Assembly: GCA_030265395.1 (NCBI GenBank)
Contig: JARFYF010000059.1
Location: 8,260,895-8,324,894 of the forward strand
DNA: 64,000 nucleotides
Reading direction: 5' to 3'
Source: Rhina ancylostomus
Taxonomy: Eukaryota
Part shown: piece by piece, positions 8,701 to 61,110 of the stretch
Layout of the letters: each line of letters opens with the position of its first letter
Numbering within the stretch: position 1 is the first letter of the stretch
Position numbers and translations under genes: made by a program
Notes under the pieces: generated by a model
The model's database searches: none
Seen by the model: only the letters and a program-made list of their open reading frames with translations
Told to the model about the DNA's origin: nothing

Positions 8701-11700
8701 TAAAATCTGGATTTCCATTCACAATCTCTTCAAGTCACTGCTTTCACTCCCAAGGTGTCCCGCTTTCCTAGTCATAATGCAGCAGCTTTGGTATTGACCT
8801 TGTTAAAATATTTGTGTTTTCAGCAGTACTTCCATTTCACTGCATGGGACTCCAAATGTCTGACATTAATCTCCATGCTTTTACATTCTATTACTTTGCA
8901 CCGATGTAATAGTAATGTCGTTGTACCCAATGTGAAGAATCTGATTTTCTCCAACACTTTTTTTTATTTTAAAGGTCTATCATATGGAAATCATCTTTGA
9001 ATGAGATTATCCTCGCACTGACTGGATTATCAACCTAGTGTATTTTATCTAGATCTACTTGACCCCCATGTATTGAGAATGGTACTTTTAATAATTGGAC
9101 ATTTGTAGCAAATTAGAACTATCATTTTATGCACTATTTTTAGAAGACATCTTCCTGATGCCTACAAACAGGTCCTACATGTATTGGTCCAAGAGACTGC
9201 CATTAGAAGTAAATTTCTTTCCTTCTCCAATGAAAAGCATTCAATTTAGCAAGGTTCATACTGGCATCTTTTTAGACTTTTTTTTTCCCCAGTGTCAAGT
9301 TTGGAAGAGCATTTACACAAGTGACATAGGGAGAAAAATGTATTCAATTACAATAGTTGATTTTAAACTGTTAGTCTGTGCTTGCTGGGATTTACTGTTC
9401 CAAGAATGTTATACATTTATCAGCTCCACCTATGATTAATTACTTTTGCTGCTTTAAACTGATTGGGAGTGCAAATTCTTTTTCATTACTCCAAATACAT
9501 AGATCTTTTATAGATTGCACTTGAACAATTTGGAATAACACAATTAAAATACTTTTCCTATCTCCATAATATACAACTATTCTTATTCCTGCATTTTAAA
9601 TGCTTTTTAGATTTGTACATCCAATGAATATGTAAGAAATAATGCTGACATTATTCAATATTTCCTGGTCTCCACATTCATCAGTTGAGAAAGGGAGCAC
9701 TAAAATTTGTGTACAGTCTTTCAAAAACACAAACCCTACCCCAGTGATTTACCAGAATGCACAGGATTAATAGTTCCCATGAGATAATCTGAAATAATGC
9801 AACATACAGCAAGAATGTGAACAGTACTTCCAAAAACTGGGGAAACTCTAATACTTAAAATAGGTGAGAGATACGTTTTGATCTACCTATAAACAAAAAG
9901 TGATAATAGATAAGTGGCAGGTGCTCCTAGAAGAACCCTGGGTCTTTTGGCATTTATGCAAACACAAGTTTTGGTTGGAATGGGGATGGGAAGAATCCCT
10001 GAACAGTCCAGCCATGTTCCCTCATACTAAATGAGAAAAATATAGAGTGAAGTTTCTTTTTAAGACTTGCTGAAACATTTATTTTAGCAGCACTAGAACT
10101 CCAGGCTTCTCTTATTGGAACCTGCCAAGTAGTAACTGAATTGAAGGCAAACCTACATTCCACCATTTGAGTACTGCAAGATGGCAGCCAGTGTAACAAA
10201 TGCTGAAAGAGCAGCCTAATTCCTTGTAAAATTGAAGACATACTGACTCAGGGCAACAATGCTTATGAATTGCAAGAAACTGATTATTTAATATGCAGTT
10301 GATTAAATTACAAATGTAAATTTGTAGACAAGATTCTTCAAATAATGACATGCATTATTGTAAATTCTTGTATTCTTTTATAATCGAGTCAGCCCACCTA
10401 AGATGGTAACATTGGTTCTGTAGTATCTCATCATTGCCTCCCCTGGCCCTCCAGCATCAGATTCCAACTGGCTCTTCTATTTTCCAAACTATAGTGAACA
10501 ACATAACTAATGTTATATCAAGCAATATATTTTAAAATGGGTTGAAAGCTCATATCCATTATCGAAACCCAACTCAGGGATTAAGCTCCCAAAGAACCGT
10601 TATGCAGTTGTACAATGGGAGATGCAGTAAACCCTCAACTTTCACAGGTGATACCAGTTGCCAGAAATGATAAAGTCAGCTCATCAATCTTTTCCCCTTA
10701 AGGTTGCAGTAAATTGAAAGCAAACCACACTTACTTTGAAAAGCTGAAACTTAAAAATCCAAATCAAAATCTATTGTCTTTTGTTGCCAGATCGAAGAGT
10801 GCAGGTGCTCAAGAGAGTCCCCTTCCATTTTAAATAGCTTAATTTATTTCATGGACTCTTTTCCATTAACCTGATCAAAAAGTATTAACTGTTACAGGTT
10901 TTCACAGATGCATGTTTGAAAAAGTCTCCAAACATGTTCCCTTTCATTTGTTGCAGCAAACAAAACCTTGTTAAAGAACAAATTGAATTATTGCTGTAGC
11001 AAGTTTTTAGTGAATGTTCACTAATTGGGATGTGGAGTGGGGGAGACCCATAGTCTAGATGGGCAACAGGTGGCAAAATACGGCAGATGCAGAAAATCCA
11101 ATTTACACAAAGGAATTGAGGTAAGAAATTAGACAACATTAACGAAGAGGATTAATGTTTCAGATCAATGACACTGTGTTCTCATAGAAGACAATCCACC
11201 TGAAGCTCTGCTTCTGTTCAGATGCTGCCTGGCTTGCCGGGTGCTTCTAATTCCTTCTGTTTTATCATCACAGATGCACAACTACTTTCAAAAATATTCT
11301 GAACCAAAAACTCTTTTTCGGTGTGCAATTTTAAGAGGATAGCTTAAGGGTAAATGTCATCTGCAGCCAATCTACTGCCAGTTATGTTTAAGGAAGGTAA
11401 TAGTAGACATAATGGACGGAAAACCCTGTTCCAATATTTCTTCCTTCTTTGTCATAAAGAATGTTTATTTTACACTGAAAAGGTGAAGTGATGGAGAACC
11501 AAGAGTTTTGAATTCTGAAACAATTCATGCGAATTTGTGGACAAAAGATTGTTGACAACAATACAATGTACAGTATTTTTACTAAGTGAGACAAGATTAC
11601 AGAAAAAAGCTTAACAAAATGGTGCTGCATGCAAGTACTGTACTTACAAATCTGACACTAATGCAATTATCAAAAGTAAAAGAGTAGCAACATTCAGTAA

Positions 11701-12307: not shown

Positions 12308-12613
12308 CGAAGAAGAGCTTTCCAGCTTTGCTCTTGGTACTTTCTCTGCCTCTGTGAATGCCTTGTGGTAGCCTTGGCAGGTCCTTTCATCTTCTTTGGG
12401 GTTGCAGGAGACTTTTTAGGAGACCCACGCCGAGGCTTTTGAGGTGCTGTTGGCTTTTTAGCCAACTTTGCTGATGATGGCCTTGACTTTTTAGCTGTTT
12501 TTTTTGCGGGTACTTTCTTTGACACCATGCTCTTCTTAGCAGTAACAGCTTTCTTCGGTTTGGCAGCTTTTCGTTTCTGCAACTTGGCCTTGGCTCGTGG
12601 AACTGGCTTCTGC
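12308..12613 (-). CDS. HP1BP3: HP1BP3 last coding exon, Lys/Ala/Pro-rich H1-like C-terminal tail (partial; runs into N-gap)
   Basis: CAG acceptor at 12615-12614 in the required phase; QKPVPRAKAKLQKRKAAKPKK...AKKSRPSS...SPKKSPATPKK; no stop before the gap. Confidence 0.88.
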
Positions 12614-13005
12614 CTGTTTCAGATTTTAAATGTGATAGCTTTAATACTGGTAGTCTAGTCAAATGGCTCTATTGACTGCTCAGGGTTACAGTACAACTTT
12701 GAGCTTTTGCATCCACCAAGGAAAGAAAATGTTAAATGGCTCTGACAAAGGACATTAGCTTAAACCAAAAGGTACTATATTGTTACTCTTTCCAGGCATT
12801 GGTTAAGCATATTGAGTAATTGTAGCATTCTATTTTTGTTTCAGTTGCCTAGTTTATTTTACTTCTTACCCGAGTCTTTGTAATTTTTAAATGTTGATGC
12901 TCTTCATACTGTTAGAATTCCCAACTGATTAGTTGGGCAACCTTGTCAATACATTAAAAATGCAGCAACAAGCATTCTCAAAATTATTTAACACTAAACA
13001 CACAC

Positions 13006-13137
13006 CTTTTTTTAGGTGGCTCATCTTCGTCAGATTCTTCTTCTGACTCTGATAACTCATCCTCATCTTCCTCTTCCTCTTCTACCTCAGATTCGTCCTC
13101 TTTCTGATGCTGCTTTTCAGGGAAAAGGACATTTGGA
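13006..13137 (-). CDS. HP1BP3: HP1BP3 coding exon 10, acidic region (PNVLFPEKQHQKEDESEVEEEEEDEDELSESEEESDEDEPPKKR)
   Basis: Resembles human PGVLFPKK...EDEEPPPKRR; 132 nt; TAG acceptor and GTGTGT donor. Confidence 0.94.
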
Positions 13138-14636
13138 CTAAAGAAAATAGAAATATTTAGTCACAGTTAAGGGATGTTGCTCAACACCAAGAAAGCTTGA
13201 TCCCAACATTCTGCCCGTGACCTAAATGGAAGCAGTCCTGCAGTAGCACAGGTAATCCTGATAACACACAATTTAAACAGCAAATTATTAGAAACAGAGG
13301 TGTATAGAGTAAATTAGAAAGCAGAGCAAAAAAGATCCAAGGAAGAGACAGAAAAAGACCAACAGGAAGCTTTGAAGCCTCAGTGTGTGTCTCCCTGCAC
13401 TTAAAAGTCAATGATGTACATTTGAATTGTAGTCAGCTGTAATGTAAGAAATGATCCAAGCGTTCAGGGCCTTTAAAAGTTGTATTTAGATTGTCCCTTC
13501 ATGAAAACCCCAAAGGTGTCCCATACAGATTTGGAAGACAATGATAGACCTCCAGAGTAACAGAATACATTTCAAAACAAAAAGCTCTAGTTAGCACATT
13601 AAAAATACCACTTGAGTGCAATAGGAAGGAATATTATGGTGCTCAACAGAAAAATACACTATCTTCGATAAATGACAAATTCATATTGTCCAAGCTCCAT
13701 AAGCATACCAAAGTAATACAAAAATCAGTGGTGCTATAAATACAATGAAAAAAACCACCCCTGAAATACTTATTCAAAGTTGTTCAACTAAAACAAATGC
13801 CATTTACTCAAAGCATGCTAATTATCTTAAACCTCAATTACCTTGCAAATACTCAATCCTCTCTGCTGGCCAGATAGTGGTTATGAAACAGACTGAACAA
13901 TCTAATCGCCTCTGATGAATCCTGCTACTCGAGATATCATCACAAGGACGCACAATTAACTTGCCGTTCCACCAGCAGCTTCAAGAAAATCCCAGGCAGA
14001 AATGGTCCTGGCTGGGTTCTACAGTTGCAACTAAGAATGAAACAGCAGAGAGGTCTGCTGTTGGTCACCACGTTAACTCACACCCTGGGTGCATCAGAGA
14101 ATGGTCAGCTGGTCAAAATGTTCGCTAGGTAAGATGTAAAATTCAGAAGTAAAAATTAATTGCCCACTTAAAAGTTACTGTTGTGAATCCACTAAAAGGA
14201 AATAGAAAGTACAAATCTTAAACTAATTTGCCAAAAGGCAATTACTGACCAAGACGGTGACTTTAGGGGGTTCAGAGGACCAGAATTGTCAAATCAAACC
14301 CCATCATTCACACAACCAAAATGTACACAATGCAAAACATCTTTTTCAGTGTAACTTTCAAGCCTTGGAATATTTTTCTTTAGATTTCAATAATCAAGCC
14401 TTATGCTGAAAATTAAAAATATTGGACATGCCAAAATAACAAGCTTCGTATTGAAGTAAGTCCCCATTCCCTGTATCACTGTCAATGGCTGTAGCTACTT
14501 CCACACAGAGGATCAACAAATAAGAATGTGGTGTTTCTAAATATGGAAACATGCAAGCCCTTTGACCAAAACTATATGTGAGTATATTGTTGGATTTTCA
14601 CATTCTTTGTTTTTTAATAATTAAAACTGTTCTTAC

Positions 14637-14748
14637 CTGGGGTAAAATGGGAAACAGAGCTGGAAGGAACCACTGAATCCTTTGCCCGAAATCTGTTCAA
14701 TCCATCCATTTTTTTCACATTTCTGCAGTGTTCTCTTCAACATATGCA
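14637..14748 (-). CDS. HP1BP3: HP1BP3 coding exon 9 (MHMLKRTLQKCEKNGWIEQISGKGFSGSFQLCFPFYPS)
   Basis: Third wing motif GKGFSG; 112 nt, phase 1 to 2; CAG acceptor and GTAAGA donor. Confidence 0.97.
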
Positions 14749-17181
14749 CTGGAAAAGATAACACAGGACAATCAAAATGCCGAAAATTACATTCATTTGG
14801 TTACAGTGGTATGATGGATAAAAGGTACAGGCCCAAATCCATTCTTCTCTGCAGAATGGAACTTTGCTTTCCTTGGAAGAGAGAACAGCAATCAATGCTT
14901 TTGAAAGAAATGCCACTCCAACCTTCAATTACAATACCTAACACATTATTCAAATTTAACTTCTGCATGCCAAATATTACATCTTGTTGCAACACTACAA
15001 TGATGTAAAATTTGCTCAATTTAGGTTCAATCACAAAAGAACCATGTGGTCCCTAAATAATAATCAACACAGTATTTCCTTTGGTAGAAAATATGAAACC
15101 CATTTTAATCATCTGTATTCATTCCTGCTCGAGGATACAATTAACATACTGAATAGTACCATCACGTCTATTTCATGAAATCTGGTGAGATATCATCTGG
15201 ATTATCGTGCACCTGACACTCCTACCATAATAACGATATTCCAGCTCGAGACAAGGTATAATGCATATTAATGTCGATAATCTCTCACCTAAGTCACTGA
15301 AGCATGGGGAATGATTTTATGTCTTGGCCTTATTCAAGAGTCTGGGAGGGAACCTGATCCATGCCTTCCACATTATTAAGGGAATTATTAACACAAGCAA
15401 ATTTGATGCACACTGAGGGAGGGGAGGAGTTACTTGTGCAGCGGTTTCACTTTACTTAGTTGGTGTGCACTTAAGCAGATGAAGACCAGCTCTTCACTAA
15501 ATTAGCTACAAACACCTTGGAAAATGAGATTAAAACAGAAAAATGCTTATATTTTCAAGTAGTAAGTACAAAGTTCTGTCCTCCCATACCAAGACTCATC
15601 ATCTTCAGTGATTTAATGAAGAATTTCTGATTAGTTGAGATGTGTTGAATTGGCTTTCGATCTCTTTGCAACTCAACAAGAAATATATTGTGGCATGTGT
15701 GGGAGCTTACTGTGTAATAGTCAAACAACATTTTAATTTGCATTTTAATTCAGATTTCTTTACATCTGGAGGAGTATGAACAACTGTGCAACGAGTTTAA
15801 GAATTACAAATTGGTCTTCATTTGTGCCTTGCACTTTGATAAGGTGGCAGAGATTACTACCCTCGATCAGTGTGGGTAAAATTAAGGAGAAATGTAATAA
15901 TTGAGATTTAAAAGCGCAAGTTTTTTTTCCCCCTTGATTTCCATATTCCACCCAAGAGGTAGCAAAAATCAGGATTTCTGTGCATCCAAGTCCAAAGCTT
16001 CCTGACAGCTAATCCCAGGCATTTTGCTGTCTGCGTTTTCTCCCTAACTCAGAGGATCAGTCCAAACAACCTGCACTAGGTTGGACCTAGACCAGAAATA
16101 GCAACTATATTCATTTTGATGTTGAGGAAATGACTACAAAAGGACCAGGCCAAACCTTAGTAAATTGATTAAATACGTTTCTAAAGGTTTGTGAATGCAC
16201 CCAAGTAAAAAGCATTTGATAACTTTGACAGTCTTCTTAGCTAAGGGTCCTCAGTTCTTTTTGGCATTTTCGCAGGTGGGCTTCATCCTTGAACTTCTCC
16301 TGTGTATTAGATCTGGGCTGCAAAAAACCCCATCCTAACATAGGGACTAAATTGCTCTGTTCCTCATCACTTTGCCCAAAGAGAAACATCTAGGTAATTC
16401 CAGTTTAATATGCCAGTTAACGATGAGGGTGATGCCTTGCTGCCGACTGAAAAATGTTGCCCAATGTTTCTCACTCTGGTATCTGGCACTCCTCTTCTTC
16501 AACATACCCACAGCTTTTTCAAAGTTTTGTTTTCCCCCAGAATGAACTCCCTTTTAAATAGTTTAAAGTAAAAGCTTTAAGCAAGTAAGGTTTCCCATTA
16601 TTCTAATTCCTTTCTTCCCTAGCTTGGTATCGATATCTTTACCCTTATTTGTAAAACACCCAGGGATATTTGTTTACATTGAAGTAAAGCAAGTGAAAAT
16701 TGTTGTAACGTCCTCACTTTCAAACAGATCGACAGACTACATTCTTTAATAGCAGCACCAATCAACTCAGTGGGTTGGGTTATATAGTTTTTCAGACTGA
16801 TGCCATGCATGAAGCTTCAAGTAACTTTAAAAAACACACACAGCGTCCACTATCAGCACGTTTATTGACCTTCGAAGAGCATCATGAAGTTCGACATAAA
16901 ATTAAATTTTTTCATTACTGGATAATACTTAAAACAATTGTCCTTTATCAATATACAATTTGATGCACCAGAAGAAAAAACACACAAAATTACAAGAACA
17001 AATACTAATTCTTCATACACTTGCTGCAACTTAAAATAACCACAACTTTTTATTCCCCACAATTGAACTAGCAGTTTCCAGAATAGTGTCATTAAATTGT
17101 ATCCCAGGCAACTAAATTATAACTAGCTTTTTAATGAAGTAAATATAATCTAAAAGACAAAAAAGATAGTGTCCAACTTAC

Positions 17182-17341
17182 TCTGGAAATTTGAATTTGT
17201 TGCAGGAACTTTCTCCGAAACATACTTTTTAAGAGCTGTGGTAGAACAGGTTTTTGGTTCATTCATGGCAGTTATAGCACTTAGAATTGCATCCTCAAAT
17301 GGACCTCCACTTAACAATGGCTTGTCTCCAGCCTTTTTAAG
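17182..17341 (-). CDS. HP1BP3: HP1BP3 coding exon 8, H15 domain 3 start (LKKAGDKPLLSGGPFEDAILSAITAMNEPKTCSTTALKKY...)
   Basis: MNEPKTCSTTALKKY motif; 160 nt; CAG acceptor and GTAAGT donor. Confidence 0.97.
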
Positions 17342-18077
17342 CTGCAACAGAAGATGGAAGCAGTAAAACCAAGTGAAAAATTCTCAACACCAATCAAGTT
17401 TCAATGTTATATTACAAGTGGAGTTATGGTGTAGACTTTTCTTTGGGTTCGTTACGATATTTCAAGATCCCAGGTAACATTAGGACAATGAAATGGTTCT
17501 ACCCAGTTCACCCAAGTTGTACAAAAGCCTCTGTGTGAGAACTCATCCCTGCCCAAATTCCCCACCAGATATTCCTGGGACAAGAATTCCTCCTGCTCCT
17601 GTGTTTTCCCAAGGAGCAGGAATGTCTGACTATGGTTAATATCATCAAGCCAAACCAATTAAAAATTTAATTCATTCTTCTTTTGTCCTCTAATAATTGA
17701 CACTAAACATCAGGCTCCATACAGGAAGTACTCAATATCAAGAGTCCCAGACACAAATAACTACTGTTTAAACAAAAAGATGTGCTCCAATGGTTTATGC
17801 ACTTTAATAGCTGCTTGCCAATTTTCTTTACTCCCAGATGGATCTTTGTGATGAGATAAAATTGAAAGGATAAATGACATTTACAACTAAACCCATGCTT
17901 CTGGGATGCAGGTATTCCAACAAATTAATACAATCCCAAACTGGTGGTGGGAAGCAAAATCCTCAGGATAACTTCCAAAGGTGGTGAGACTGAAGTCCAT
18001 TTCAATGCAGCAGAATGCATGTACCCTAAACCGACAACAACACTGCCCATCCATTCTTCAGCATCAGTGATACTCAC

Positions 18078-18168
18078 CTGGAATGTGCCCGATGCTCCCT
18101 TGCCAGTGATCTGCTCCAACTGACCCTTATCCACAGCTCTTTGCAAAGCCTGTTTGAGTAAATAGGGC
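18078..18168 (-). CDS. HP1BP3: HP1BP3 coding exon 7 (RPYLLKQALQRAVDKGQLEQITGKGASGTFQ)
   Basis: Second GKGASG wing; 91 nt; CAG acceptor and GTGAGT donor. Confidence 0.97.
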
Positions 18169-18993
18169 CTGTAAATTAAGCACATGCAAAATAATCTCCG
18201 ATGGTAGAAATGCAAGTATGATAAATCAAGCTCTCAGGAGGAAAAAAAATCACAACTTCAAAGCATCCTTATAGAATTGAAGGGCCCACTTCATGTGCTG
18301 AAGATGGCAGAATTCTGGTGAAAGACTGCCAAAGGGTTAAGAAGCATACCTATCAGACAATTTTCTTGATCATTAGTTATTTGATTTCTATTTTGCTCTA
18401 CCCAGCTTTCTGAGTGAAAGTGGAAAAGATCATGCTCGCTGGGGAAAGGGACACAGACAGAGATGGTAAAGGAAAGCAGATCAACATAACAATAGAGAAA
18501 AAGAAATCACACAAAGGAAAAATTAAAACCCAAGGCCATTAGATGTTTTTTTTAAAGAAAGAGTTGATATGACATAACATTGCTGCTCTGAGCTTCTTCC
18601 TTCCCTTTTGTATGTATGCAACTTTCCGGTGTCTCTCTCCTACTCTGACTAACATTTGGTGACTTTGTGGTTAAATTAGAAAACTTATTCCTCTTTCTTT
18701 GCCTCTACTTTCTATGATGCAGTTTTGGAGCAAAACTCAGTGGCTAAAATTCAGTTCACTTGGGAGAACTAGCCAGTTAGCCAATCAATTGCACTTAAAA
18801 GTTTTACCTGGACAAATGACCGGACCAACTGGCAACTTTAGTGCACCTGATGACCAATCTTCAGGAATGAAAAGCAGACTACACTAAAAGAATCCATAAT
18901 CTTACAGGTGGAATCTCAAAGTAAGGATTTAGTGTGCTTCACATTGGCTGTAGCCTTGGGCAAATATGCTAACATAATTCTTTACTTTCATAC

Positions 18994-19148
18994 CTGCTTT
19001 CAGCATTCAGTTTGGGATAATATTGAAGAAGATACTTCTTGATAAGACTGTATGATGCCTCTTTAGGTTCACACAGCTTTGTGAATGCCAGTGGTAGAGC
19101 ATCCTCCAGTTTTATTGGCTGCTCCGTTGGTCCAGATGAAGTGGTTTT
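18994..19148 (-). CDS. HP1BP3: HP1BP3 coding exon 6, H15 domain 2 start (KTTSSGPTEQPIKLEDALPLAFTKLCEPKEASYSLIRKYLLQYYPKLNAES)
   Basis: Translated by hand; matches LPLAFTRLCEPKEASYSLIRKY; 155 nt, phase 0 to 2. Confidence 0.97.
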
Positions 19149-20245
19149 CTATTAAAAAAAGAATACTAGGCTTGATCAAAAACAACTTTTCTTTGAAAAA
19201 ACACTTACCATCTGTACAATCCATTTAAGTTGTCAGTGCAGAGGTACAATATGCAAGATTTGAGGCGATCAAGATCCTGCTCCAACTGGAAAAGCATATC
19301 GACGTACTGAAAACTGAAAAAAGTTATCAATATGGCTATTTGCTGAATCAGTGGAGGATTGTGGCCAAGAAAAACAGTGAAAGCTTTGACAGTCATTTCT
19401 GCTAATGCCTAGGAAAAAGTCCATTCACTAGAATCAGACAGAGCCTGGTTACCTGACTATGGATGGGAACCAACTATGTGGTAAAATATTTGATCTGAGT
19501 TGGACTGTACCATGCTGACCCAACTCAGTACTTTATTCAGGGCAAGATGATTTGGTTGGTATTATAACATCCTCTGTAATCAATATTTGGTGCTTTAGCC
19601 TTAAACAGATCAAGAGCATGTTTGAGATTCTCAAGTCTGTGGTCAGATATGGAAATAAAAATTATGAGTATCAGTGCTCAGGCTGGGTTTGGACTGGCCC
19701 TGATCAGGTCACGTTACAATTTTATAACCAAGCAGACTCCTGGATGAAAGTCCAGAGTTCAATTAAAATTCTCCAGTTCTTGTAGGAGGAATTCTCCTGC
19801 TTACAGAGACAAAACTAACAGGAATATACCAACAATAATTGGTCTAAAAAGCCACTGTCAGTTTACAATCAGAGGCATCACAATGAAATTCAAGTTGCTG
19901 CTTGCTGGACATGTTGAAAGCTTCACTTAGATTAGGTCAGAAGCTTAGCTGGACTGTATAGAAATTCTATCACTACTTTCTGCTCTAATTAAATTTTACA
20001 TATTTTCTTAAGCAATTTGTGATATTGAGGCAGTAGCAAACCCTGATACCTAAATACTGTTATGCAACAAACCATTCAAAATGAATTCCATATAGAAATA
20101 TGCTGAGTTACCTGACCTGAATGCCTGCAACGTGGACCAGTAAATGCATGTAGCCCCAAAGAAAGTGCTTCAGCAGTTTCCTTCCTACTCGCTTCATATA
20201 CATTTCCAATCTATTTGTCCCTGCCAATATTAATAAATGATGAGC

Positions 20246-20405
20246 AACACACATGCTGCGGGAACTCAGTAAGTCAGGCAGCAACTATGGAAGAATGGGA
20301 AGTTGATGTTTTGGGTTGAGACCCTTCAAATGTTGACTGTCCATTTTCTTCCATATATGCTGCCTGACCCACCGAGTTCCTCCAGCATCTGCAGCTTCTT
20401 GTGTC
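20246..20405. mobile_element. Head-to-head inverted pair of Penelope-like terminal repeats inserted as one unit
   Basis: Left arm is the reverse complement of the right arm; flanked by a perfect 16-bp direct repeat TTAATAAATGATGAGC (20230-20245, 20406-20421). Confidence 0.85.
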
Positions 20406-20864
20406 TTAATAAATGATGAGCCCAATTACCCTAATATTATGTACTTGGGGACCTAAACTACCCAAGAGGTTCTTCCACACCATCATACNNNNNNNNNNNN
20501 NNNNNNNNNNNNNNNNNNNNNNNNNNNNNNNNNNNNNNNNNNNNNNNNNNNNNNNNNNNNNNNNNNNNNNNNNNNNNNNNNNNNNNNNCACACCATCATA
20601 CGCTAGATGGAAATATGGTAAAACTTTGATAATTCAGCATCAGATTGTTCGGAAATCCTGATGATTCAGCAACTACCCCAATCATTGGTCCAGGGTGTGA
20701 ACTAGGGATCCAGGCTGCAAATGGGGCATGCAGCCAGAGCTGGGGTCAGGACTGCTAGCTGTGGTGGGAACACCATGGCTCAATCCAAAACATTCAAGCT
20801 GAAATTGACTGGGTTCTATTTCCCAATCTCTTCAAACCCATCGGTTTCACTGGAAAATGTATTA

Positions 20865-21600
20865 TGGAGACAAAAGAGACTGCAGGCGCTGGAGCAAAAA
20901 CCAAACAGCTGGAGGAACTCAGGGGGTCAGGCATCATTTGTGGACACAGAGGGATAGTTGACATTTCAGGTCGAGACCTTGCATCATGGCTGAGAGTGCA
21001 GAGGAGAAATAGTCAATAGAAAGAGGGAAAGGTGAAAGTACATACAGAAAGTGATAAGTGAAGACAACAAAGTGCCAGAGATATTGGAATCTGATAAATG
21101 AAGGTAATAAGTGGAACCAGAAAAATGAGGGATGGTAGGCAGATGGAGCCAATGAGGAGAGGAGGGTTTGAGAGAACCTGGGTTGATCAGAGGAAAGAGA
21201 GGGAGAGAAACACAGGGGTGCAGCTTACCTGAAATTGGAAATTTCAATGTTCGTACCATTGGGTTGAAGACTACCAAGGCAGAATATGAGGTACTGTTAT
21301 CTAGTTTGTATTTGGCCTCACCCTTGCAGTGAAGGTGAAATTACCTGGAACCAGGAGCTCATGATGGCCACCTTCAACCCTTTGTTGTCTCCACATTACC
21401 ATCTAGCCTCTGACTACCTCCACCTCCCCCATTCCTGGCTCCAGCTGCCCTTCATCCCCCTCCTCACCTGGTTCTACCTGTACTGTCCATCTCCCCTTTA
21501 CCTTCTCAGCCCTGATGCAAGGTCTTGGCCCGAAATGTAGATTATCACTCTGAGCCCACATATGTCACCTGCCCCGCTGAGTTTCTTCAGCAGTTTTTTT
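20865..21600. mobile_element. Inverted Penelope-like element with GIY-YIG C-terminus and two hammerhead-like motifs
   Basis: Minus arm encodes YLIFCLGSLQPNGTNIEISNFR* (about 21225-21293) and has a hammerhead motif at about 20955-20992; plus arm has CTGATGC...GAAA at 21512-21535; TSD CTGGAAAAT(G/T)TATTA at 20850-20864 and 21601-21615 (14/15). Confidence 0.85.
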
Positions 21601-21759
21601 CTGGAAAATTTATTACAGTATATAACATATTAAAAAATGTGAAACGAAAAGGTGTTTGTGTATTAATAGAAGTAACACCCAAAAGTTTGAAAAATCCACT
21701 AGTCTGCCACTACCAAGTTTCTGAGGATGCAGATTATCAGAGCTTTACTAATAAATGCA

Positions 21760-22190
21760 CATCACGGAAACCAGCCTTCCCTCCATGGACTCTTGTCCAT
21801 GCTTCTCGCTGCCTTGGTGAAGCAGCCAGCATAATTAAAGACCCCATCCACTCAGGACATTCTCTCTTCTCCCCTTACCCATCAGGCAGAAGTTACAGGA
21901 GCCTGAGGGCACACACCACCAGGCTCAAGGACAGCTTCTATCCTGCTGTTATAAGACTATTGAATGGTTCCCTTATACGATGAGATGAACTCTTGACCTC
22001 ACATTTTACCTTGTAATGACTTGCACCTTATTGTCTACCTGCCCTGCACTCCCTCGGTAGTGGTGACACTTTATTCTGTATTCTATTATTGATTTTACCC
22101 TGTACTACCTCAATGCACTGTACAAATGGTAAGAAAGACAAGTTTTTCCACTGTACCTCGGTACAAGTGACAATAATAAACCAATACTAA
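21760..22190 (+). mobile_element. Rex1/Babar-type LINE 3' end
   Basis: ORF end ASIIKDPIHSGHSLFSPYPSGRSYRSLRAHTTRLKDSFYPAVIRLLN is typical of the Rex1/Babar ORF C-terminus, followed by a 3' UTR ending ...gtgacaataataaacc. Confidence 0.8.
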
Positions 22191-22480
22191 TGTAAGAGGA
22201 AAAAGAGTGGATTTCTCTTACAGCTGGACGCAGTAGATAAAAGTTTAGGAATTTTGATTCTTGGACATTGCTGTTTACAGTATGTTCCTACAAGAATAAA
22301 TGAAGCAGTTAAAGATTAAGGTCTGCCTCAGCACAGCTATACCTCAAGCTAAACACTGCCTTCCTGACCTGATGAACAATCCCAAAAAAGTATTAGAAAA
22401 TGTGGTAAATAAGAGCAAAGAACATGAAAACTTGTTTTAAATTCCACTTTTACACCAATAATAACCATGCAATTAATTAC

Positions 22481-22564
22481 CTTTTTGTCCTGTTTGGATT
22501 TATGCGATTGTTTCCCTGCATTTGACACAACCACAAAACTTCCAGAGGCACCTTTTCCCTTCAC
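22481..22564 (-). CDS. HP1BP3: HP1BP3 coding exon 5 (VKGKGASGSFVVVSNAGKQSHKSKQDKK)
   Basis: H15 wing motif GKGASGSF; 84 nt; CAG acceptor and GTAATT donor. Confidence 0.96.
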
Positions 22565-22889
22565 CTGAAGAACAGGATGCATTCAACATTATTCCTTTTA
22601 CGTAATGGACTATAAGTAAGTTGAGAACTAGTTTAGAGGTCAATAACAACATTATCATGCACTTGCAAGGAAATAATTCATCCTAGTACCTGGAATCAAG
22701 TAAAATTAGAAGTTAAACATTTCTTCACAAGGTTAACAACTATACGATAAATTGCACTTAAGTTTTAATGAAATTCAGACTCTATTGAACTCAAAATGAG
22801 TCACGCCACCACTGGCAGAATATAACTTGTTCATTGTGTCTATTTTCTAGTACGCTCAGGTAAGGCACAGGGTAGATAACAGCAGAGCC

Positions 22890-23200
22890 TAAAGATATCA
22901 ACCTTCAAATATAACCTCCTCTGGACTCCTACCCCTGGCCAAATCAATTGATTGGTCTGTCATCCTTGCCCAGGAACCACACACTGTAATTGTTCCGATG
23001 TGTACTACTGATTCCCATGACATTTCAGGTTTTCTAGTGCCTAGCCTAGGTAGATTTGAAACAGAGTCAAATAGAGAACGGAAAAGACACACATTAGCTC
23101 CTACAGCAATATCATTTCCCAATAATCCTTCCCATTTTGCAAACATGCCCAATTTACGTGACTGCTCCTCAGATTCCAATCCCTCCATTCAGTAAGTAAA
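22890..23200 (-). mobile_element. Degenerate CR1-type ORF1 (SGNH esterase-like) fragment
   Basis: VVHIGT motif in ORF 22898-23188 resembles the CR1 ORF1 VVHVGTND block. Confidence 0.4.
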
Positions 23201-23469
23201 ATATTCTTTTCGTACTGTGACAATCAGAACTGCACACTATGTTTTAGGTACAGATGAACAATGATTTATAAAGTGTAAACGTGCTCTCACTATCCTAGGG
23301 ATAGAGAGGAACAAGTTAGAAGTCAAATAAGCAAGGAGGGAAAAAGCAATACCAACTTTCCAGTGTTGAAACTTCCTGTGCAGGATGCAATCCACTCCTA
23401 CTTATCTTTCACTTAATTTTTATTGATATATAATGGAAGGGAGCTCCATAAAAAAAATCTAATGGTTAC

Positions 23470-23613
23470 CTGTTTGATAGCACCACGTTGCAGCTCCCGT
23501 TTTAAGGCTTGCTTTAGTATATATCCCCTGCGTTCGAGTTCCAGTGATGGATACTTGTTAATGATATATTTTCTTATGGCGACAACGGAAGCACCAGACT
23601 TCTGGAAACAAGC
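23470..23613 (-). CDS. HP1BP3: HP1BP3 coding exon 4, H15 domain 1 (ACFQKSGASVVAIRKYIINKYPSLELERRGYILKQALKRELQRGAIKQ)
   Basis: Translated by hand; 144 nt; CAG acceptor and GTAACC donor. Confidence 0.97.
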
Positions 23614-31169: not shown

Positions 31170-31305
31170 ACAGCTTGCTGGAGGAACTCAATGAGTCAAG
31201 CGGCATGAGAGGAAAGGAATTGTCAACAATTTGGGTTGAAACCCTGCATCCTGATACACGCAGAATTTGTTCATTCAGCCCACTGAGTGTGCTCCACCAC
31301 TCAAT
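31170..31305. mobile_element. Short inverted Penelope-like terminal-repeat pair within a SINE-like fragment (about 31000-31530)
   Basis: gctggaggaactca...ttgggttgaaaccctgcatc (minus arm) followed by ...cccactgagtgtgctcca (plus arm). Confidence 0.55.
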
Positions 31306-31899: not shown

Positions 31900-33300
31900 A
31901 AACAGAGCTTGTGGCACGTAGCTTGGGCTGTCCAGTGGGAGTACAGGGACGAGCCTCAGCTGCGGCCGAGCCTTTCGGAGGAGGGAGGCTTCCTCCAGGG
32001 GACGGAGGGGGCCCCAGCGCTGCAGGGGCGCATGCTCAGTGCCACCCCACGGAGCAGCCCCTCAACAAAAGCAAACAAGCGCCTTCATTNNNNNNNNNNN
32101 NNNNNNNNNNNGAAATAACCGACTCCAACTGCCCGCAGCCACACGCAGCGCCGCTCCCCGCAGCCGAGGGAGCAGGGCAGGCGGGGGGCCCGTGCGCCCT
32201 CCCCGGGCGGTGGGGAAGGGGGCGGGCGGCGGCACCGAACCCGCTCCCACATCAAAGCCCCAGCATCAAAATGGCGCTCCGAGCAAACACAAACATTGCA
32301 GCGGCCCGCTGCCGCCGCTCCCCCGCCCGCCGCCCCAGAGGGGTGGCGCGCCCCTGCCGTTGTTTTATTACCCGGCGGACTCCTCACGTCGGCGGCCGCC
32401 CCACTCTCTGCCTCCTCCCGCTGTGCCTGCAGCCCGGGCTCTGGCGCCTCTTCACCCTACCTGCCTCCGGCCGGAAACGCCGTCACCCAACCGACGGTGC
32501 GCGCAGCAGGATTCAAACAAAAACAAATGGAAATACCTCCCACTGACAAACCATGCCCCTCCCGCAAAAATCCAGCGGGCGCTGTGAATTACCTCGCCTT
32601 AAATTATTTACATTGATAAAATCAACCGCGTTTTTTCTCTTTTGACCGTTTATTTTTTTCCGTTTTACCCTCAAAAACATGGCGGGGGCGGGGGGTGTTG
32701 CCCCTCACCAAGATGGCGACAAAGGCATCTTGCCCCTCAGAAAATGGCAGCCGCGGTGGGGCGGGTGCCCCTCACAAAGGTGGCAGTCACCGTGGGTTTT
32801 GCCCCTCACAAAATGGCGGCCGCGGGGGTTCTGCCCCTCACAAAGATGGCGCGCTGATCTCCAACATCACCCCCTCCCCCCGTCATTTTTTTAAACATAC
32901 TTATTTCCTTGGAGTTAAAAAGTGCACCTGCAAATTCCAAATACACGCTTCATTGGAAATACCGAGAGGATGTTTTCAACCAGAGACTATTGCTCATTTA
33001 TATTAGTGTTTCAACGCACAGGACCCTCGGGCGTTGGTGCTGACTCCTTCCAGCCGAGGGCTCCGCCGGCCGCCTCCGGGCAGAGGTAATGATTAATAGT
33101 TAATGTTTACTCTTCGGAAGCGAGGGGCGACATTTCCAGGCGCCGGCTGAACCAACCGGCAGCCCCCGCCTCTCGCTGACCACCATTTACATTTGAAAGG
33201 GCCAACTGAATGGCGGCGCGGCCCATCCCATCCAATCCAATCCCGGCCGGGCCCCAGCAGATCGTTGTGTTCACATGGAGCCCGGGGCTTGGCTTCACCT
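31900..33300. promoter_or_regulatory. CpG island / HP1BP3 promoter and probable non-coding first exon(s)
   Basis: Abrupt GC- and CpG-rich stretch in otherwise AT-rich, CpG-depleted DNA, about 2.2 kb upstream of the first coding exon; GC boxes, GCGCATGC (NRF1-like, about 32028), CCGGAA (ETS-like, 32471), several AAnATGGCG (YY1); candidate minus-strand donors at 32592 (AG|GTAATT) and 32460 (AG|GTAGGG). Confidence 0.85.
32666..32851. repeat. Phased array of six roughly 20-bp repeats TGCCCCTCACAAA(A/G)ATGGCG (YY1-like motif) with variable spacers
   Basis: Units start at 32666, 32699, 32731, 32766, 32800 and 32832 (period 32-35 bp); spacers are dissimilar. Confidence 0.9.
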
Positions 33301-36949: not shown

Positions 36950-37150
36950 CCTGAAATAAAATTGAAATCTGGAGGTCAGGCAGCATCTACAGAGAGAGGA
37001 AGAGAGTTAATGATTCAGGTCAATGACCCTTCATTAGATCTGGTCATTGATCTGAAATGTGAACTTTGTTTTTCTCTCTACAGATCCTGCCTGACCTGTT
37101 GAGTGTCTCCAGGATTTTCTGTTTTTATTCCAGATTTTCAGCACCTACAG
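36950..37150. mobile_element. Head-to-head inverted Penelope-like terminal-repeat pair
   Basis: aggtcaggcagcatctacagagaga...ttcaggtcaatgacc is mirrored by ggtcattgatctgaa...tctctctacagatcctgcctgacct; centre near 37038. Confidence 0.75.
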
Positions 37151-37249
37151 TTTGTTTTCACTCCTCTACATAGCCCCTTGTACCTATTCTATCATTCAAT
37201 GATATTATTAAATTGAAGATCTGACTCCACATATCTAACTTCTCCCCAC

Positions 37250-57796: not shown

Positions 57797-57978
57797 TTAG
57801 TTATCTTCCGACTCCTCCTCTGCTTCTCTTAGCCATGTAAAAAAAGCCGTGACAGATTTTAGCGCTACCCCTTTGCCACTCTGTTCTGCTGGGTCTTTGC
57901 TACATTCCCATTTGTAGAATGTATCTTCAGATATAACATCCTCATCATACAAAGTGTCAAAGAACATCCTTAGCAAGT
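57797..57978 (-). CDS. EIF4G3: EIF4G3 last coding exon ([60 protein letters not shown])
   Basis: C-terminus [15 protein letters not shown] is the EIF4G3 form (EIF4G1 ends [15 protein letters not shown]); CAG acceptor, TAA stop; neighbour of HP1BP3 as in human. Confidence 0.96.
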
Positions 57979-58642
57979 CTGTTTGGAATAGGAAAAATGG
58001 AAAAGGAATGCAGCATATTAGTATTATCGCAGCACAGAGAAAAACTATTAGTCTGTTTATATTGGGGGCAATTTGATGAAATGAGAGTAGTTTTTTTTGA
58101 AAAAGCTTATGATTGCATACAGTATTACTGGAGTTGTGTTTCAGCAGGGACCATGGCAAGTTTTAAGATTAGAGAGGCAGCTGTAAGAAATGTGAATAAA
58201 GGTCCATAGGATTGGGGTAGGCACGCGGGGTTGGGAGTGCCATCCATATGGAGAAAACTCAAAGGTCTATTTTAAAATTCTTATTCAATAGAGAAAAAAA
58301 AACTCAGTAATTAACCATTGAGGATATAAAATACCATCAATCACAACTAGTCTTTTCAGAAATTATAACGCAACTATTAGGAATGGGGAACTGTGACTAA
58401 TTTCCTCTCTCTCACTTTTGAATACGTAGATCAAAGCCAACACGATTACACAAAGCTTGCGCTGAGATGCACTCACCCTGAAGGGATTCTCAAGCTTGCA
58501 CAGCTCTGGACTGCAAGGTATACAAAGACATAGAATGGCGAAGTCTTACTGATCAAGTGCCTGTCTGTATTGATCTGTTGCAAACGTGGAAAGCCAATTT
58601 CACTGGCCCAAAGCATCCAGGACTAGTGGCATGGTGTCAGTG

Positions 58643-59098: not shown

Positions 59099-60604
59099 CT
59101 AGAAGTAACAAGAGAAACAACATTGGCAAGGAACTCATGGACAAAAATCAAGAACATCTTTTCAAAACAATGGTATTCTTTAACACTTTGCGGCAAAATC
59201 ACTCTCTAAGAATGCAAAGCACTTTTCCAATATACCATAACCACAGCATCCTTAAAACGTTTTAAGCTATACAACAAGCCTACATTAAATACTCATTCTG
59301 TAATTTGTGTTCTTATTTTACCTTGCACACAAGATTTAAAATATTTCAGATATTCACCAAAACACAGACCAATGTATAAACTCCAGTACTCCAGTGAGTA
59401 GACTTACAGAGCATACAGAAACCTCACCATGGTCTGATGTAAAGAAAGTCTGCCTACATTGCTCCGCCCTGTGTCGCACACCTCAATTTTACTTTGCTCC
59501 CGAGACCATTTATAAGAAACTTTATTTTTTCCAAATGTCTGACATTACACATACATAAAACCACGCTATAAATCTTAAGATTGAAAGAAGGCATGCACTA
59601 TTGTTTACATGCTAATCTCAACTACAATTTAATTGATAATGTGGACCCTATGATATCTGCCTTGGAATTGAGAATATTTGAGTCTAAAGGGACAAGGATA
59701 TTGGAAACAGATGGGAACTTCATGTACAGGATTAGACATGATCTCACTGAGTAGTGGATCAGCCTCAAGGGATAAGATGTAGTCTTCTATTTCTAATAGT
59801 ATCAACACATACTTAAAAACAAACAGGGAAGTACCATTACATAATTAATCCTGTAGAATATGTTCAAAATCTATATGGTTTTCCAGTGTTCCATCAGTTA
59901 GGTTGTATTAGAATTACACCAGGTTTTGAAGGGGAGGTTTAACATCTCAATGCTTGCTTGTATTCCCTGCATCCCCAGATCACATTTACCACACAGTATT
60001 GCATTACACAGAACTGTCAATCAGGAAATAAGCAAAAAGATGGCTTATTCCTGGACCATCAAAACACCCCATGGACTACTAAAAGATTTAGTTTGGTACC
60101 ACCCACAGCTTCCTCTGACATAATTATCCAGGGTGGCTTTAAAAAGATTAAAAGGCTTGCAGTCTTTCTACACTTGTTTTTCTGTGTCCAAAGATGTGTT
60201 TTTTACCCCACTGAAAAACACCCAGTTAACAGTTACCATCTGCCTTTCTATATTTTTCCTCTATGCACCAAGATTCAGTATTTTTATGTGCTCTCACTGT
60301 AATGATTTTCATCAAATCTTTGGAGTTAGATCATTTCTTTGATTTGGTTTAAATGGAAAATTCAAATAAAAACTACAAGTATTAGACATTTATCACCACA
60401 TGATAACTGAAAATATGATTTGCTAGTTTTGAGAAATTACATAATTTAAAGGGAGGATCTTACAGAATCTATAATCTTAATGACCACACCTATGAGTCTT
60501 CTAAGTGAAATTATTCATAGTTCTTGGTTCATGGCTATTGTGGCTAACAGTCTCAGTGCTCACCAGCAATTAAACCAATATTTATGATTTTCAACAGCAC
60601 GATC

Positions 60605-61110
60605 GCTGAATTCTCCAATTTCAGGTAAAGTGCTCCCCTTCCATCCCTCTTCTCTCTCCTCCTGATCTAACCAGTTCCTCCCACACACCCCAGACCCTTA
60701 TCACCCTATTTATTTCCCCTCCTCCACTCACTCCATCTATCCATCACCCTTGCACTCCTCCCACTGGGTCTCCTTCCCCACCATTCCTATCTGCCAACCC
60801 CAGCTCCTTTATTTGATTCCATGCTCCACCTTCCTTTCTGATCAGATTCCATCTTCTGCAGCCTTTTGTTTTCTCTTCCTATCACCTTCCAACCTCTGTT
60901 GCTATTTCTGTTCTTTACTCCTCTGTCTGCTTATCACCCTTCCTCACCCTCTACCACCTATTGCTTGCCAGCTCTTGCCCGACCCCTTTATATCTCCTCT
61001 ACCTTTTAGTCCAGGTTAAGGGTCTTGACCTGAAACACTGACTGTCCATTTCCCTCCATAGATGCTGCCTGATCCACTGAGTTCCTTCAGCTTCTTGTTT
61101 GTTGCTTTAC
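60605..61110 (+). mobile_element. Penelope-like element 3' end in an EIF4G3 intron
   Basis: Begins with EFSNFR* codons (gaattctccaatttcaggtaa, 60608-60628), pyrimidine-rich body, decayed hammerhead agtc...agggtcttgacct-gaaac-act-gactg at about 61008-61044, then the family tail. Confidence 0.8.

What the first reader, a model, noticed from the sequence alone, without database searches (positions are those of the whole stretch)
20230..20421. 160-bp palindromic Penelope mini-insertion with a perfect 16-bp target-site duplication
Seen in sequence: two oppositely oriented terminal-repeat arms fused at the hammerhead (…gagacccttca|aatgttgactg…), bounded by TTAATAAATGATGAGC on both sides. The TSD shows the hairpin arrived as one insertion. 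The junction falls inside the ribozyme core close to the predicted cleavage site, and similar fusions occur at 36950-37150, 31170-31305 and about 11140-11270. Inference: either inversion during reverse transcription of a ribozyme-processed RNA, or a non-autonomous MITE-like hairpin element mobilised by the Penelope machinery.
Basis: partly seen in the sequence, partly recalled or inferred. Interest (0 to 1): 0.7.

Follow-up and report, generated by a model that had tools for sequence, protein, structure and literature searches.

The report
Head-to-head Penelope retroelement end stub
This 160-base hairpin in a gene's intron is an old, decayed leftover of a Penelope-type jumping gene: two short end pieces joined back to back, likely built at landing when both cut DNA strands primed copying, in a layout that is already described and very common in this genome.

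Summary
In detail: a perfect 16-bp duplication brackets two head-to-head end pieces of a GIY-YIG Penelope-like element, in an intron of an HP1BP3-like gene. In 1.05 Mb of evenly spaced genome sample, 34 such pairs occur against 2.3 expected.

The MITE reading fails. This junction occurs once in the genome, all 34 sampled junctions differ, and the two commonest junctions occur with the tail on either arm, 8:7 each. The cleaved-RNA reading also fails: only 3 of 68 arm ends lie at the predicted cut and 54 run past it, as both arms here do. Neither arm keeps a complete hammerhead.

One arm starts at the element's long end and the other about 31 nt further in (25 of 34 pairs). This matches the two copying start sites and two-strand nicking shown in vitro for an anole element. 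Most likely both nicked strands primed a short cDNA and the two were joined inside the quasi-palindromic ribozyme region.

The layout (inverted repeat, one-sided tail, duplication) is published, and this scan noted it many times before, in this and other genomes. Ordinary, with modest mechanistic value as a population.

The parts
20230..20245 (.). Left copy of the 16-bp target-site duplication; its last 4 bases also match the end of the left arm (possible primer-template pairing)
20246..20328 (-). Left arm: element end piece from -24 to about +64/+67 relative to the predicted cut; short start, no tail; hammerhead lacks the first CUGA bases and G12; 3-nt deletion absent in relative D
20327..20329 (.). 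Head-to-head junction, 1 nt of microhomology, unique in the genome
20329..20405 (+). Right arm: element end piece from -6/-7 to about +98; long start with tail; 27-nt internal deletion between 10-nt direct repeats; no ribozyme core
20406..20421 (.). Right copy of the 16-bp target-site duplication
20850..21609 (.). Neighbouring longer head-to-head insertion of the same element (minus arm with tail from 20867, plus arm ending near 21600, 9-bp direct repeat at 20850-20858 and 21601-21609): same layout, longer arms
36951..37156 (.). Head-to-head pair of the older subfamily A, junction -33/-20
18174..22528 (-). Host interval between two H15-domain exons of an HP1BP3-like gene (intron; exact splice sites not mapped)

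Best explanation
The insert is two short end pieces of a Penelope-like retroelement joined head to head between duplicated target bases, likely built in one landing when the element's enzyme nicked both DNA strands and each nick primed a short cDNA from uncut element RNA. Steps: (1) staggered nicks 12-16 bp apart (shown as a TSD; the enzyme is inferred); (2) one nick primes at the outer start site (+99, with tail), the other at the inner site (+67), often with 1-5 bases of pairing (start positions shown; pairing statistical); (3) both cDNAs run through the uncut ribozyme region and stop at or before about -32, probably the RNA's capped front end (pile-up shown; cap inferred); (4) the two cDNA ends are joined, helped where the ribozyme helices offer complementarity (shown for hotspots, only 1 nt here); (5) gap filling fixes the hairpin, which then decays. 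It does not copy itself further and has no working ribozyme (inferred from sequence).
For: Arms are the 3' repeat of an element whose frame ends in a GIY-YIG-type domain about 410 nt upstream (relatives' proteins hit GIY-YIG at E 5e-4 to 2e-3, below Pfam's cut-off, and carry an RT YIDD motif). 34 head-to-head pairs against null 2.3. TSDs in 10 of 34 pairs against 0 of 34 shifted controls. Long+short arm in 25 of 34; 25 of 29 classifiable, p = 5e-5. Same subfamily on both arms in 31 of 34; for subfamily B, arm identity within pairs 0.793 against 0.746 between pairs, p = 0.0013. In the two commonest junction classes the arm that stops earlier is the longer-tailed one in 7 of 20 each, which simple fold-back copying cannot give. 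T is depleted at the four positions beyond both nick sites (25 of 192 and 32 of 192), as expected of one enzyme cutting both strands. In vitro, the anole element PAc nicks and extends both strands, starts at two sites that define the tail, and does not need ribozyme cleavage (PMC11167929).
Against: No intact full-length element was found in this genome, so the RT link rests on relatives' proteins. The within-pair similarity test is not significant for the older subfamily A (0.737 against 0.724, p = 0.28). Microhomology explains junction hotspots only in part (Spearman 0.45, p = 0.02; the 34-nt peak sits at 1 nt), and 15 of 34 junctions carry inserted bases. The 5' boundary is a zone (-31 to -34), not one base; 28 of 66 solo copies and several partners of long arms run past it, so the capped-end step is not general. 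24 of 34 pairs show no TSD by my finder, which also missed this insert's own. PMC11167929 reports priming without homology, whereas I find 1-5 nt of pairing in about half of the sides. No empty site was seen.
Confidence: 0.7

Rival explanations
1. Fold-back or self-priming: one cDNA (or an antisense template, as proposed by Arkhipova et al. 2013) folds at the ribozyme helices and primes its own inverted copy.
For: The ribozyme region is quasi-palindromic, and the 27-nt junction class is exactly a helix I fold-back (13 of 100 listed matches, 5 nt microhomology). Arms are more alike within a pair for subfamily B. PMC3846280 (passages) reads palindromic junctions as self-priming.
Against: A fold-back copy cannot be longer than its template, yet the earlier-stopping arm carries the extra tail in 7 of 20 loci of each hotspot class. 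Both outer ends sit at the two defined start sites. This insert has 1 nt of junction homology.
Confidence: 0.15
2. The template was cut by the hammerhead, and the junction marks the cleaved 5' end.
For: In the 27-nt junction class one arm can begin exactly at the cut. The family majority sequence keeps a minimal hammerhead. Junctions cluster over the ribozyme.
Against: 3 of 68 hairpin arm ends and 1 of 66 solo ends lie within 2 nt of the cut; 54 of 68 pass it; both arms here pass it. The larger 40-nt hotspot (23 of 100) is not at the cut. Cleavage was dispensable for PAc. A circular or concatemeric cleaved RNA could let copying pass the cut; not excluded.
Confidence: 0.07
3. A non-autonomous hairpin element (MITE-like or retrozyme-like) that spreads as a unit.
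For: Two junction lengths recur (13 and 23 of 100); 20 exact matches each genome-wide. Penelope-derived non-autonomous elements exist (PMC3846280 pLTR-mediated trans-mobilisation; bioRxiv 10.64898/2026.07.22.740005).
Against: This junction has 1 match in the genome, itself. 34 of 34 sampled junctions differ; 21 different lengths among 100 listed. Recurrent junctions occur in both polarities, 8:7 and 8:7. TSD length is not fixed (7-21 bp). A 740-bp sibling with the same layout lies 430 bp away.
Confidence: 0.05
4. Two independent insertions at the same spot, or later recombination between two nearby inverted copies.
For: The family is dense (260 arms per 1.05 Mb), PAc can target its own repeat, and tail-to-tail neighbours are also somewhat raised (9).
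Against: One TSD encloses both arms; 34 pairs against at most 9 in 1000 randomisations; long+short pairing and subfamily match are non-random.
Confidence: 0.03

Closest known systems
Insertion unit of endonuclease-positive Penelope-like elements: inverted 5'-truncated pLTR, one-sided tail, TSD (Adineta Pen2a, PMC3846280; Fig. 2 legend of PMC8557442; passages read)
   Same: Head-to-head inverted end copy, tail of about 31 nt on one arm only, overlap at the junction, one TSD around the unit.
   Different: Both arms are cut down to under 100 bp with no ORF between; TSD 16 bp (7-21 in the family) against 8-10 bp in Adineta; copy number in the tens of thousands by extrapolation.
Poseidon element PAc of Anolis in vitro (PMC11167929; main text and part of methods read)
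   Same: Two RT start sites separated by the tail, both strands nicked and extended, minimal hammerhead not needed for insertion, AT-rich targets.
   Different: The paper does not model inverted products or TSDs (word search) and reports no primer homology. The family here has a Cys-rich linker before the endonuclease, the mark of Neptune/Nematis per PMC8557442; clade not tested by a tree.
Minimal hammerheads of metazoan PLEs (PMC4209133; parts 1-2 of 4 read)
   Same: No helix III, bulged base before helix II, palindromic 15.2-16.2; the paper notes dual motifs 100-700 bp apart on opposite strands.
   Different: Here the two motifs are fused and each is incomplete; sharks and rays are not named in the parts read.
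LINE-1 twin priming
   Same: Both target strands prime cDNA and the ends join by microhomology, giving an inversion inside one TSD.
   Different: L1 arms are non-overlapping parts of one RNA; here the arms overlap over about 60-70 nt, which needs two template copies or strand displacement.
MITEs (recalled) and non-LTR retrozymes (bioRxiv 10.64898/2026.07.22.740005, passages read)
   Same: Short, non-coding, abundant; hairpin (MITE) or Penelope-derived hammerhead (retrozyme).
   Different: No homogeneous unit, no terminal inverted repeats at the very ends, no fixed TSD, no tandem array, no intact ribozyme.

Membership tests
EN+ Penelope-like element insertion unit | Arms belong to the terminal repeat of an element with a C-terminal GIY-YIG endonuclease | tested here: met
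   (LLYIxET motif frame ending about 410 nt upstream of the cut); weak Pfam hit E 0.22 in 1 of 4 frames; relatives E 5e-4 to 2e-3
EN+ Penelope-like element insertion unit | Single ORF with RT upstream of EN in an intact copy | tested here: inconclusive
   No intact copy found (the 979-aa frame was an N run); RT motif seen only in relative's protein P0001
EN+ Penelope-like element insertion unit | Inverted 5'-truncated copy adjacent to the 5' end | tested here: met
EN+ Penelope-like element insertion unit | 30-40 bp tail at one end only | tested here: met
   left arm ends +67, right +98; 25 of 34 pairs
EN+ Penelope-like element insertion unit | Short TSD around the whole unit | tested here: met
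   10 of 34 against 0 of 34 controls; empty site not seen
EN+ Penelope-like element insertion unit | Minimal hammerhead in the pLTR | tested here: met
   present in the family majority sequence, read by eye against the descriptor in PMC4209133; Rfam gave no hammerhead hit in the window
Active hammerhead ribozyme (this copy) | Complete core boxes and helices I and II on one strand | tested here: not met
   left arm lacks positions -28 to -25 and G12; right arm starts at A13/A14
Neptune/Nematis clade | Zn-finger-like linker between RT and EN | tested here: met
   Cys-x4-Cys-x2-Cys in L284 and P0001; feature from PMC8557442
Neptune/Nematis clade | RT phylogeny | not tested
   no tree built
MITE / replicating hairpin | Many copies with the same internal structure and polarity | tested here: not met
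MITE / replicating hairpin | Terminal inverted repeats and fixed-length TSD | tested here: not met
   outer ends differ by the tail; TSD 7-21 bp in 48 insertions
Non-LTR retrozyme | Tandem monomers each with a type I hammerhead | tested here: not met
   single inverted pair with incomplete motifs; definition
L1-type twin priming | Two non-overlapping segments of one RNA | tested here: not met
   arms overlap from -6 to +67; feature recalled
L1-type twin priming | Second strand primes independently | not testable with these tools
   indirect support only: polarity counts

The most novel reading that the evidence does not exclude
Tens of thousands of these stubs are a fossil record of the unsolved Penelope insertion cycle: an enzyme dimer nicks both strands, assigns one nick to each of the two RNA start sites with 1-5 bases of pairing, copies uncut RNA up to its capped start near -32, and uses the hammerhead's own helices as the joining platform, so the ribozyme sequence acts here as an annealing scaffold rather than a cutter.
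Probability: 0.4. Interest if true: 0.45.

Novelty: new member of a known kind. Interest (0 to 1): 0.2.

Why it matters
The single copy does not matter much: it is old, shared with at least one other species, and decayed. As a population, the stubs bear on how Penelope-like elements form their inverted ends, which PMC8557442 calls still undefined. The counts here (one long and one short start per hairpin, both polarities at one junction, ends passing the ribozyme cut) favour two-strand priming on uncut RNA and give predictions for the existing PAc assay. About a quarter of sampled arms (68 of 260) sit in such hairpins, so intronic double-stranded RNA from them may be common; this was not tested.

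Tried and rejected
Rfam scan of the window: no hammerhead family; 3 matches below their gathering scores (mir-3158 twice at 36974-37096, CRISPR-DR43), rejected as chance or generic hairpin. Pfam on four short broken frames: 0 of 4; on four more: 1 weak GIY-YIG hit. Search for an intact element: the long frames were N runs or short pieces. Empty site: no contig in 8 runs from 5 coded organisms skipped the insert; contigs show presence, not absence. No RNA holder listed. The first junction mapping used a reference limited to -330, so its rows for long arms are unreliable and were not counted; counts come (34 sample pairs). The 29 best look-alikes are biased toward similar junctions and were not used for frequencies. 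Cap test on solo copies: only L065 shows TSD + one G + start at -32; the 30 loci had too few TSDs to decide. The fusion claimed at 31170-31305 was rejected. Literature searches found no paper on shark or ray Penelope hairpins or on twin priming in Penelope; the library lacks most subscription papers and Repbase/Dfam entries, and no supplements were read, so this is not proof of absence.

Full report
Observation. The sequence is as described. Identical 16-mers at 20230-20245 and 20406-20421 enclose 160 bp. The insert folds far better than its shuffles (z about -10). It lies between exons at 22567-22529 and 18173-18066 of a minus-strand gene matching HP1BP3 (PDB 2rqp, E 2.7e-6). The genome is 2.2 Gb. 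The nearest named proteins of the element come from rays, so the host is likely a cartilaginous fish.

What the arms are. Thirty long copies found with window 60600-61110 align into a reference whose upstream part translates to an endonuclease-like frame, followed by about 410 nt of non-coding sequence, a minimal hammerhead and a 101-nt end piece. Three longer relatives of that frame hit Pfam GIY-YIG below cut-off (E 5e-4 to 2e-3); P0001 also shows an RT YIDD motif and a Cys-rich linker. That is the domain order of endonuclease-positive Penelope-like elements; the linker points to Neptune/Nematis (PMC8557442, passages). No intact copy was found here. I number positions from the predicted cut (0 = first base after GUC). 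The left arm is the reverse strand of -24 to +67; the right arm is -7 to +98 with a 27-nt deletion between 10-nt repeats. Neither arm has a whole ribozyme core.

Is it more than chance? I took 120 evenly spaced 10-kb stretches from large contigs (1,049,236 non-N bases). They hold 260 arms at a score threshold of 10, where reversed decoys reach 5.5. 34 adjacent pairs are head to head, 9 tail to tail and 6 tandem; randomised positions give a mean of 2.3 head-to-head pairs and at most 9 in 1000. That is about 32 per Mb, or some 60,000-70,000 per genome by extrapolation. A TSD was found in 10 of 34 pairs and 0 of 34 shifted controls. This is a lower bound: the finder missed this insert's own TSD because of the deletion, and I added it by hand. 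Among 48 distinct TSD-bearing insertions from all sets, lengths run 7-21 bp and 8 are 16 bp, so the 16-mer is normal for the family.

Replicating unit or built at each landing? A 29-letter pattern of this junction, allowing CpG decay only, matches once in the genome: itself. All 34 sample junctions differ. A gapped pattern gave 175 matches; the 100 listed fall into 21 lengths, with peaks at 40 nt (23) and 27 nt (13) and one at 29 nt, this insert (lengths read off by hand). A replicating element would keep one polarity. For the 27-nt class, the far-reaching arm has the tail in 8 of 20 loci and lacks it in 7, with 5 unclassified; the 40-nt class gives the same 8, 7 and 5. The peaks lie where the ribozyme helices give 5 and 3 bases of complementarity; over all lengths the link is moderate (Spearman 0.45, p = 0.02), and the 34-nt peak is not explained. 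A 740-bp insertion with the same layout and a 9-bp direct repeat lies 430 bp away. Hairpins are therefore made anew each time.

Was the template cut by the ribozyme? Of 68 arm 5' ends, 3 lie within 2 nt of the cut, 11 stop before it and 54 pass it; 27 lie at -28 to -38, six of these at the limit of the subfamily A reference. Of 83 solo subfamily B copies, 66 had clean upstream sequence: 1 ends at the cut, 14 at -28 to -38, 28 further up. The pile-up lies at an initiator-like TCAGT with a TATA-like word about 28 nt upstream (motif names recalled; PMC3846280 reports such signals in a pLTR). Among copies that match from -32 but not at -33, my hand count of the 100 listed of 799 is 45 G, 32 T, 23 A, against 50 G and 50 A one base further; non-consensus bases are also common at -32 (745 matches). 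This fits a copied cap at a somewhat loose start, a lead taken from note e1-9816819, but it is not proven. PAc likewise inserts from unprocessed RNA (PMC11167929).

How it most likely forms. Arm 3' ends fall into two groups, near +67 and +99. 25 of 34 pairs have one of each, 2 have two long, 2 two short, 5 are unclassified (p = 5e-5 on 29). Both arms come from the same subfamily in 31 of 34. For subfamily B they are more alike within than between pairs (0.793 against 0.746, p = 0.0013); for subfamily A they are not (p = 0.28). PAc nicks and extends both strands and starts at two sites that bound the tail. The simplest model is one cDNA per nick, one per start site, joined at their ends. Fold-back copying of one cDNA cannot make the second arm longer than the first, which is what 7 of 20 loci in each hotspot class would need. 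At sides without extra bases (18 of 44 short-start, 26 of 45 long-start), the TSD end matches the element for a mean of 1.6 and 2.2 bases against 0.4 in permutations (0 of 2000); the other sides carry 1-8 extra bases and were left out of that mean, and maximal TSD extension may inflate it. This insert shows 4 and 1. Shown: structure, start groups, polarity, end positions. Inferred: the dimer, two templates, the cap, the joining step.

Age. Contigs of organism D cover the left flank through the left arm (19955-20326, 17 other letters and 14 gaps; 20039-20325). Contigs of B, C, D and E cover the right arm's last 29-30 bases, the TSD and the right flank. None of the 8 runs showed an empty site. 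The insertion predates those splits. The arms match the family reference at 72 of 86 and 54 of 63 positions.

Comparison and verdict. PMC3846280 (passages) describes an inverted pLTR, a 31-bp one-sided tail, a junction overlap and a 9-bp TSD. PMC8557442 (passages) and PMC8969392 (passages) call this typical. PMC4209133 (parts 1-2 of 4) notes opposite-strand hammerhead pairs 100-700 bp apart. Of PMC11167929 I read parts 1-2 of 4 and a word search; of PMC6155905 and the 2026 preprint, passages. Supplements were not read. This scan's earlier notes report the same thing in this and other genomes; they are unchecked and not counted as support. The finding is a real, tidy, minimal member of a known insertion type. 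Interest 0.2.

Noticed in passing
window 20850-21609: A longer head-to-head insertion of the same element in the same intron, with a 9-bp direct repeat and 8 extra bases at the tailed end; its minus arm reaches the endonuclease stop codon.
   Followed up: partly
window 12418-23529 (minus strand) and 57797-58162 (minus strand): Exons of an HP1BP3-like gene (three H15 domains) and a W2-domain exon of an eIF4G-like gene; GC-rich island near 32000-33000. The same neighbours as in human is recalled, not tested.
   Followed up: partly
L045:7648-7980 and L032:3186-3610: Tandem copies in which the tail continues into about 130-170 nt of further shared sequence before the next hammerhead, probably the element's 5' part; could define the transcript front or a tandem retrozyme-like unit.
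   Followed up: no
sample loci L031-L090, L121-L180: Nine tail-to-tail neighbours within 150 bp, as many as the null maximum for head-to-head pairs; perhaps insertion next to earlier copies.
   Followed up: no
48 TSD-bearing insertions: T is depleted and A/C enriched at the four host bases beyond both nick sites, suggesting one weak cut preference on both strands; position -1 is biased by TSD extension.
   Followed up: partly
window right arm, L017:1564-1643, L022, L217: Deletions between the two 10-nt direct repeats of the tail region recur in unrelated copies, likely slippage.
   Followed up: no
G000:C36:37164332-37164886 (L236): Three hairpin junctions within 560 bp, two identical: local duplication of a hairpin.
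   Followed up: no
window 21516-21983 and L294:6881-7300: A frame resembling the C-terminal end of a LINE reverse transcriptase (label recalled; no Pfam hit).
   Followed up: no
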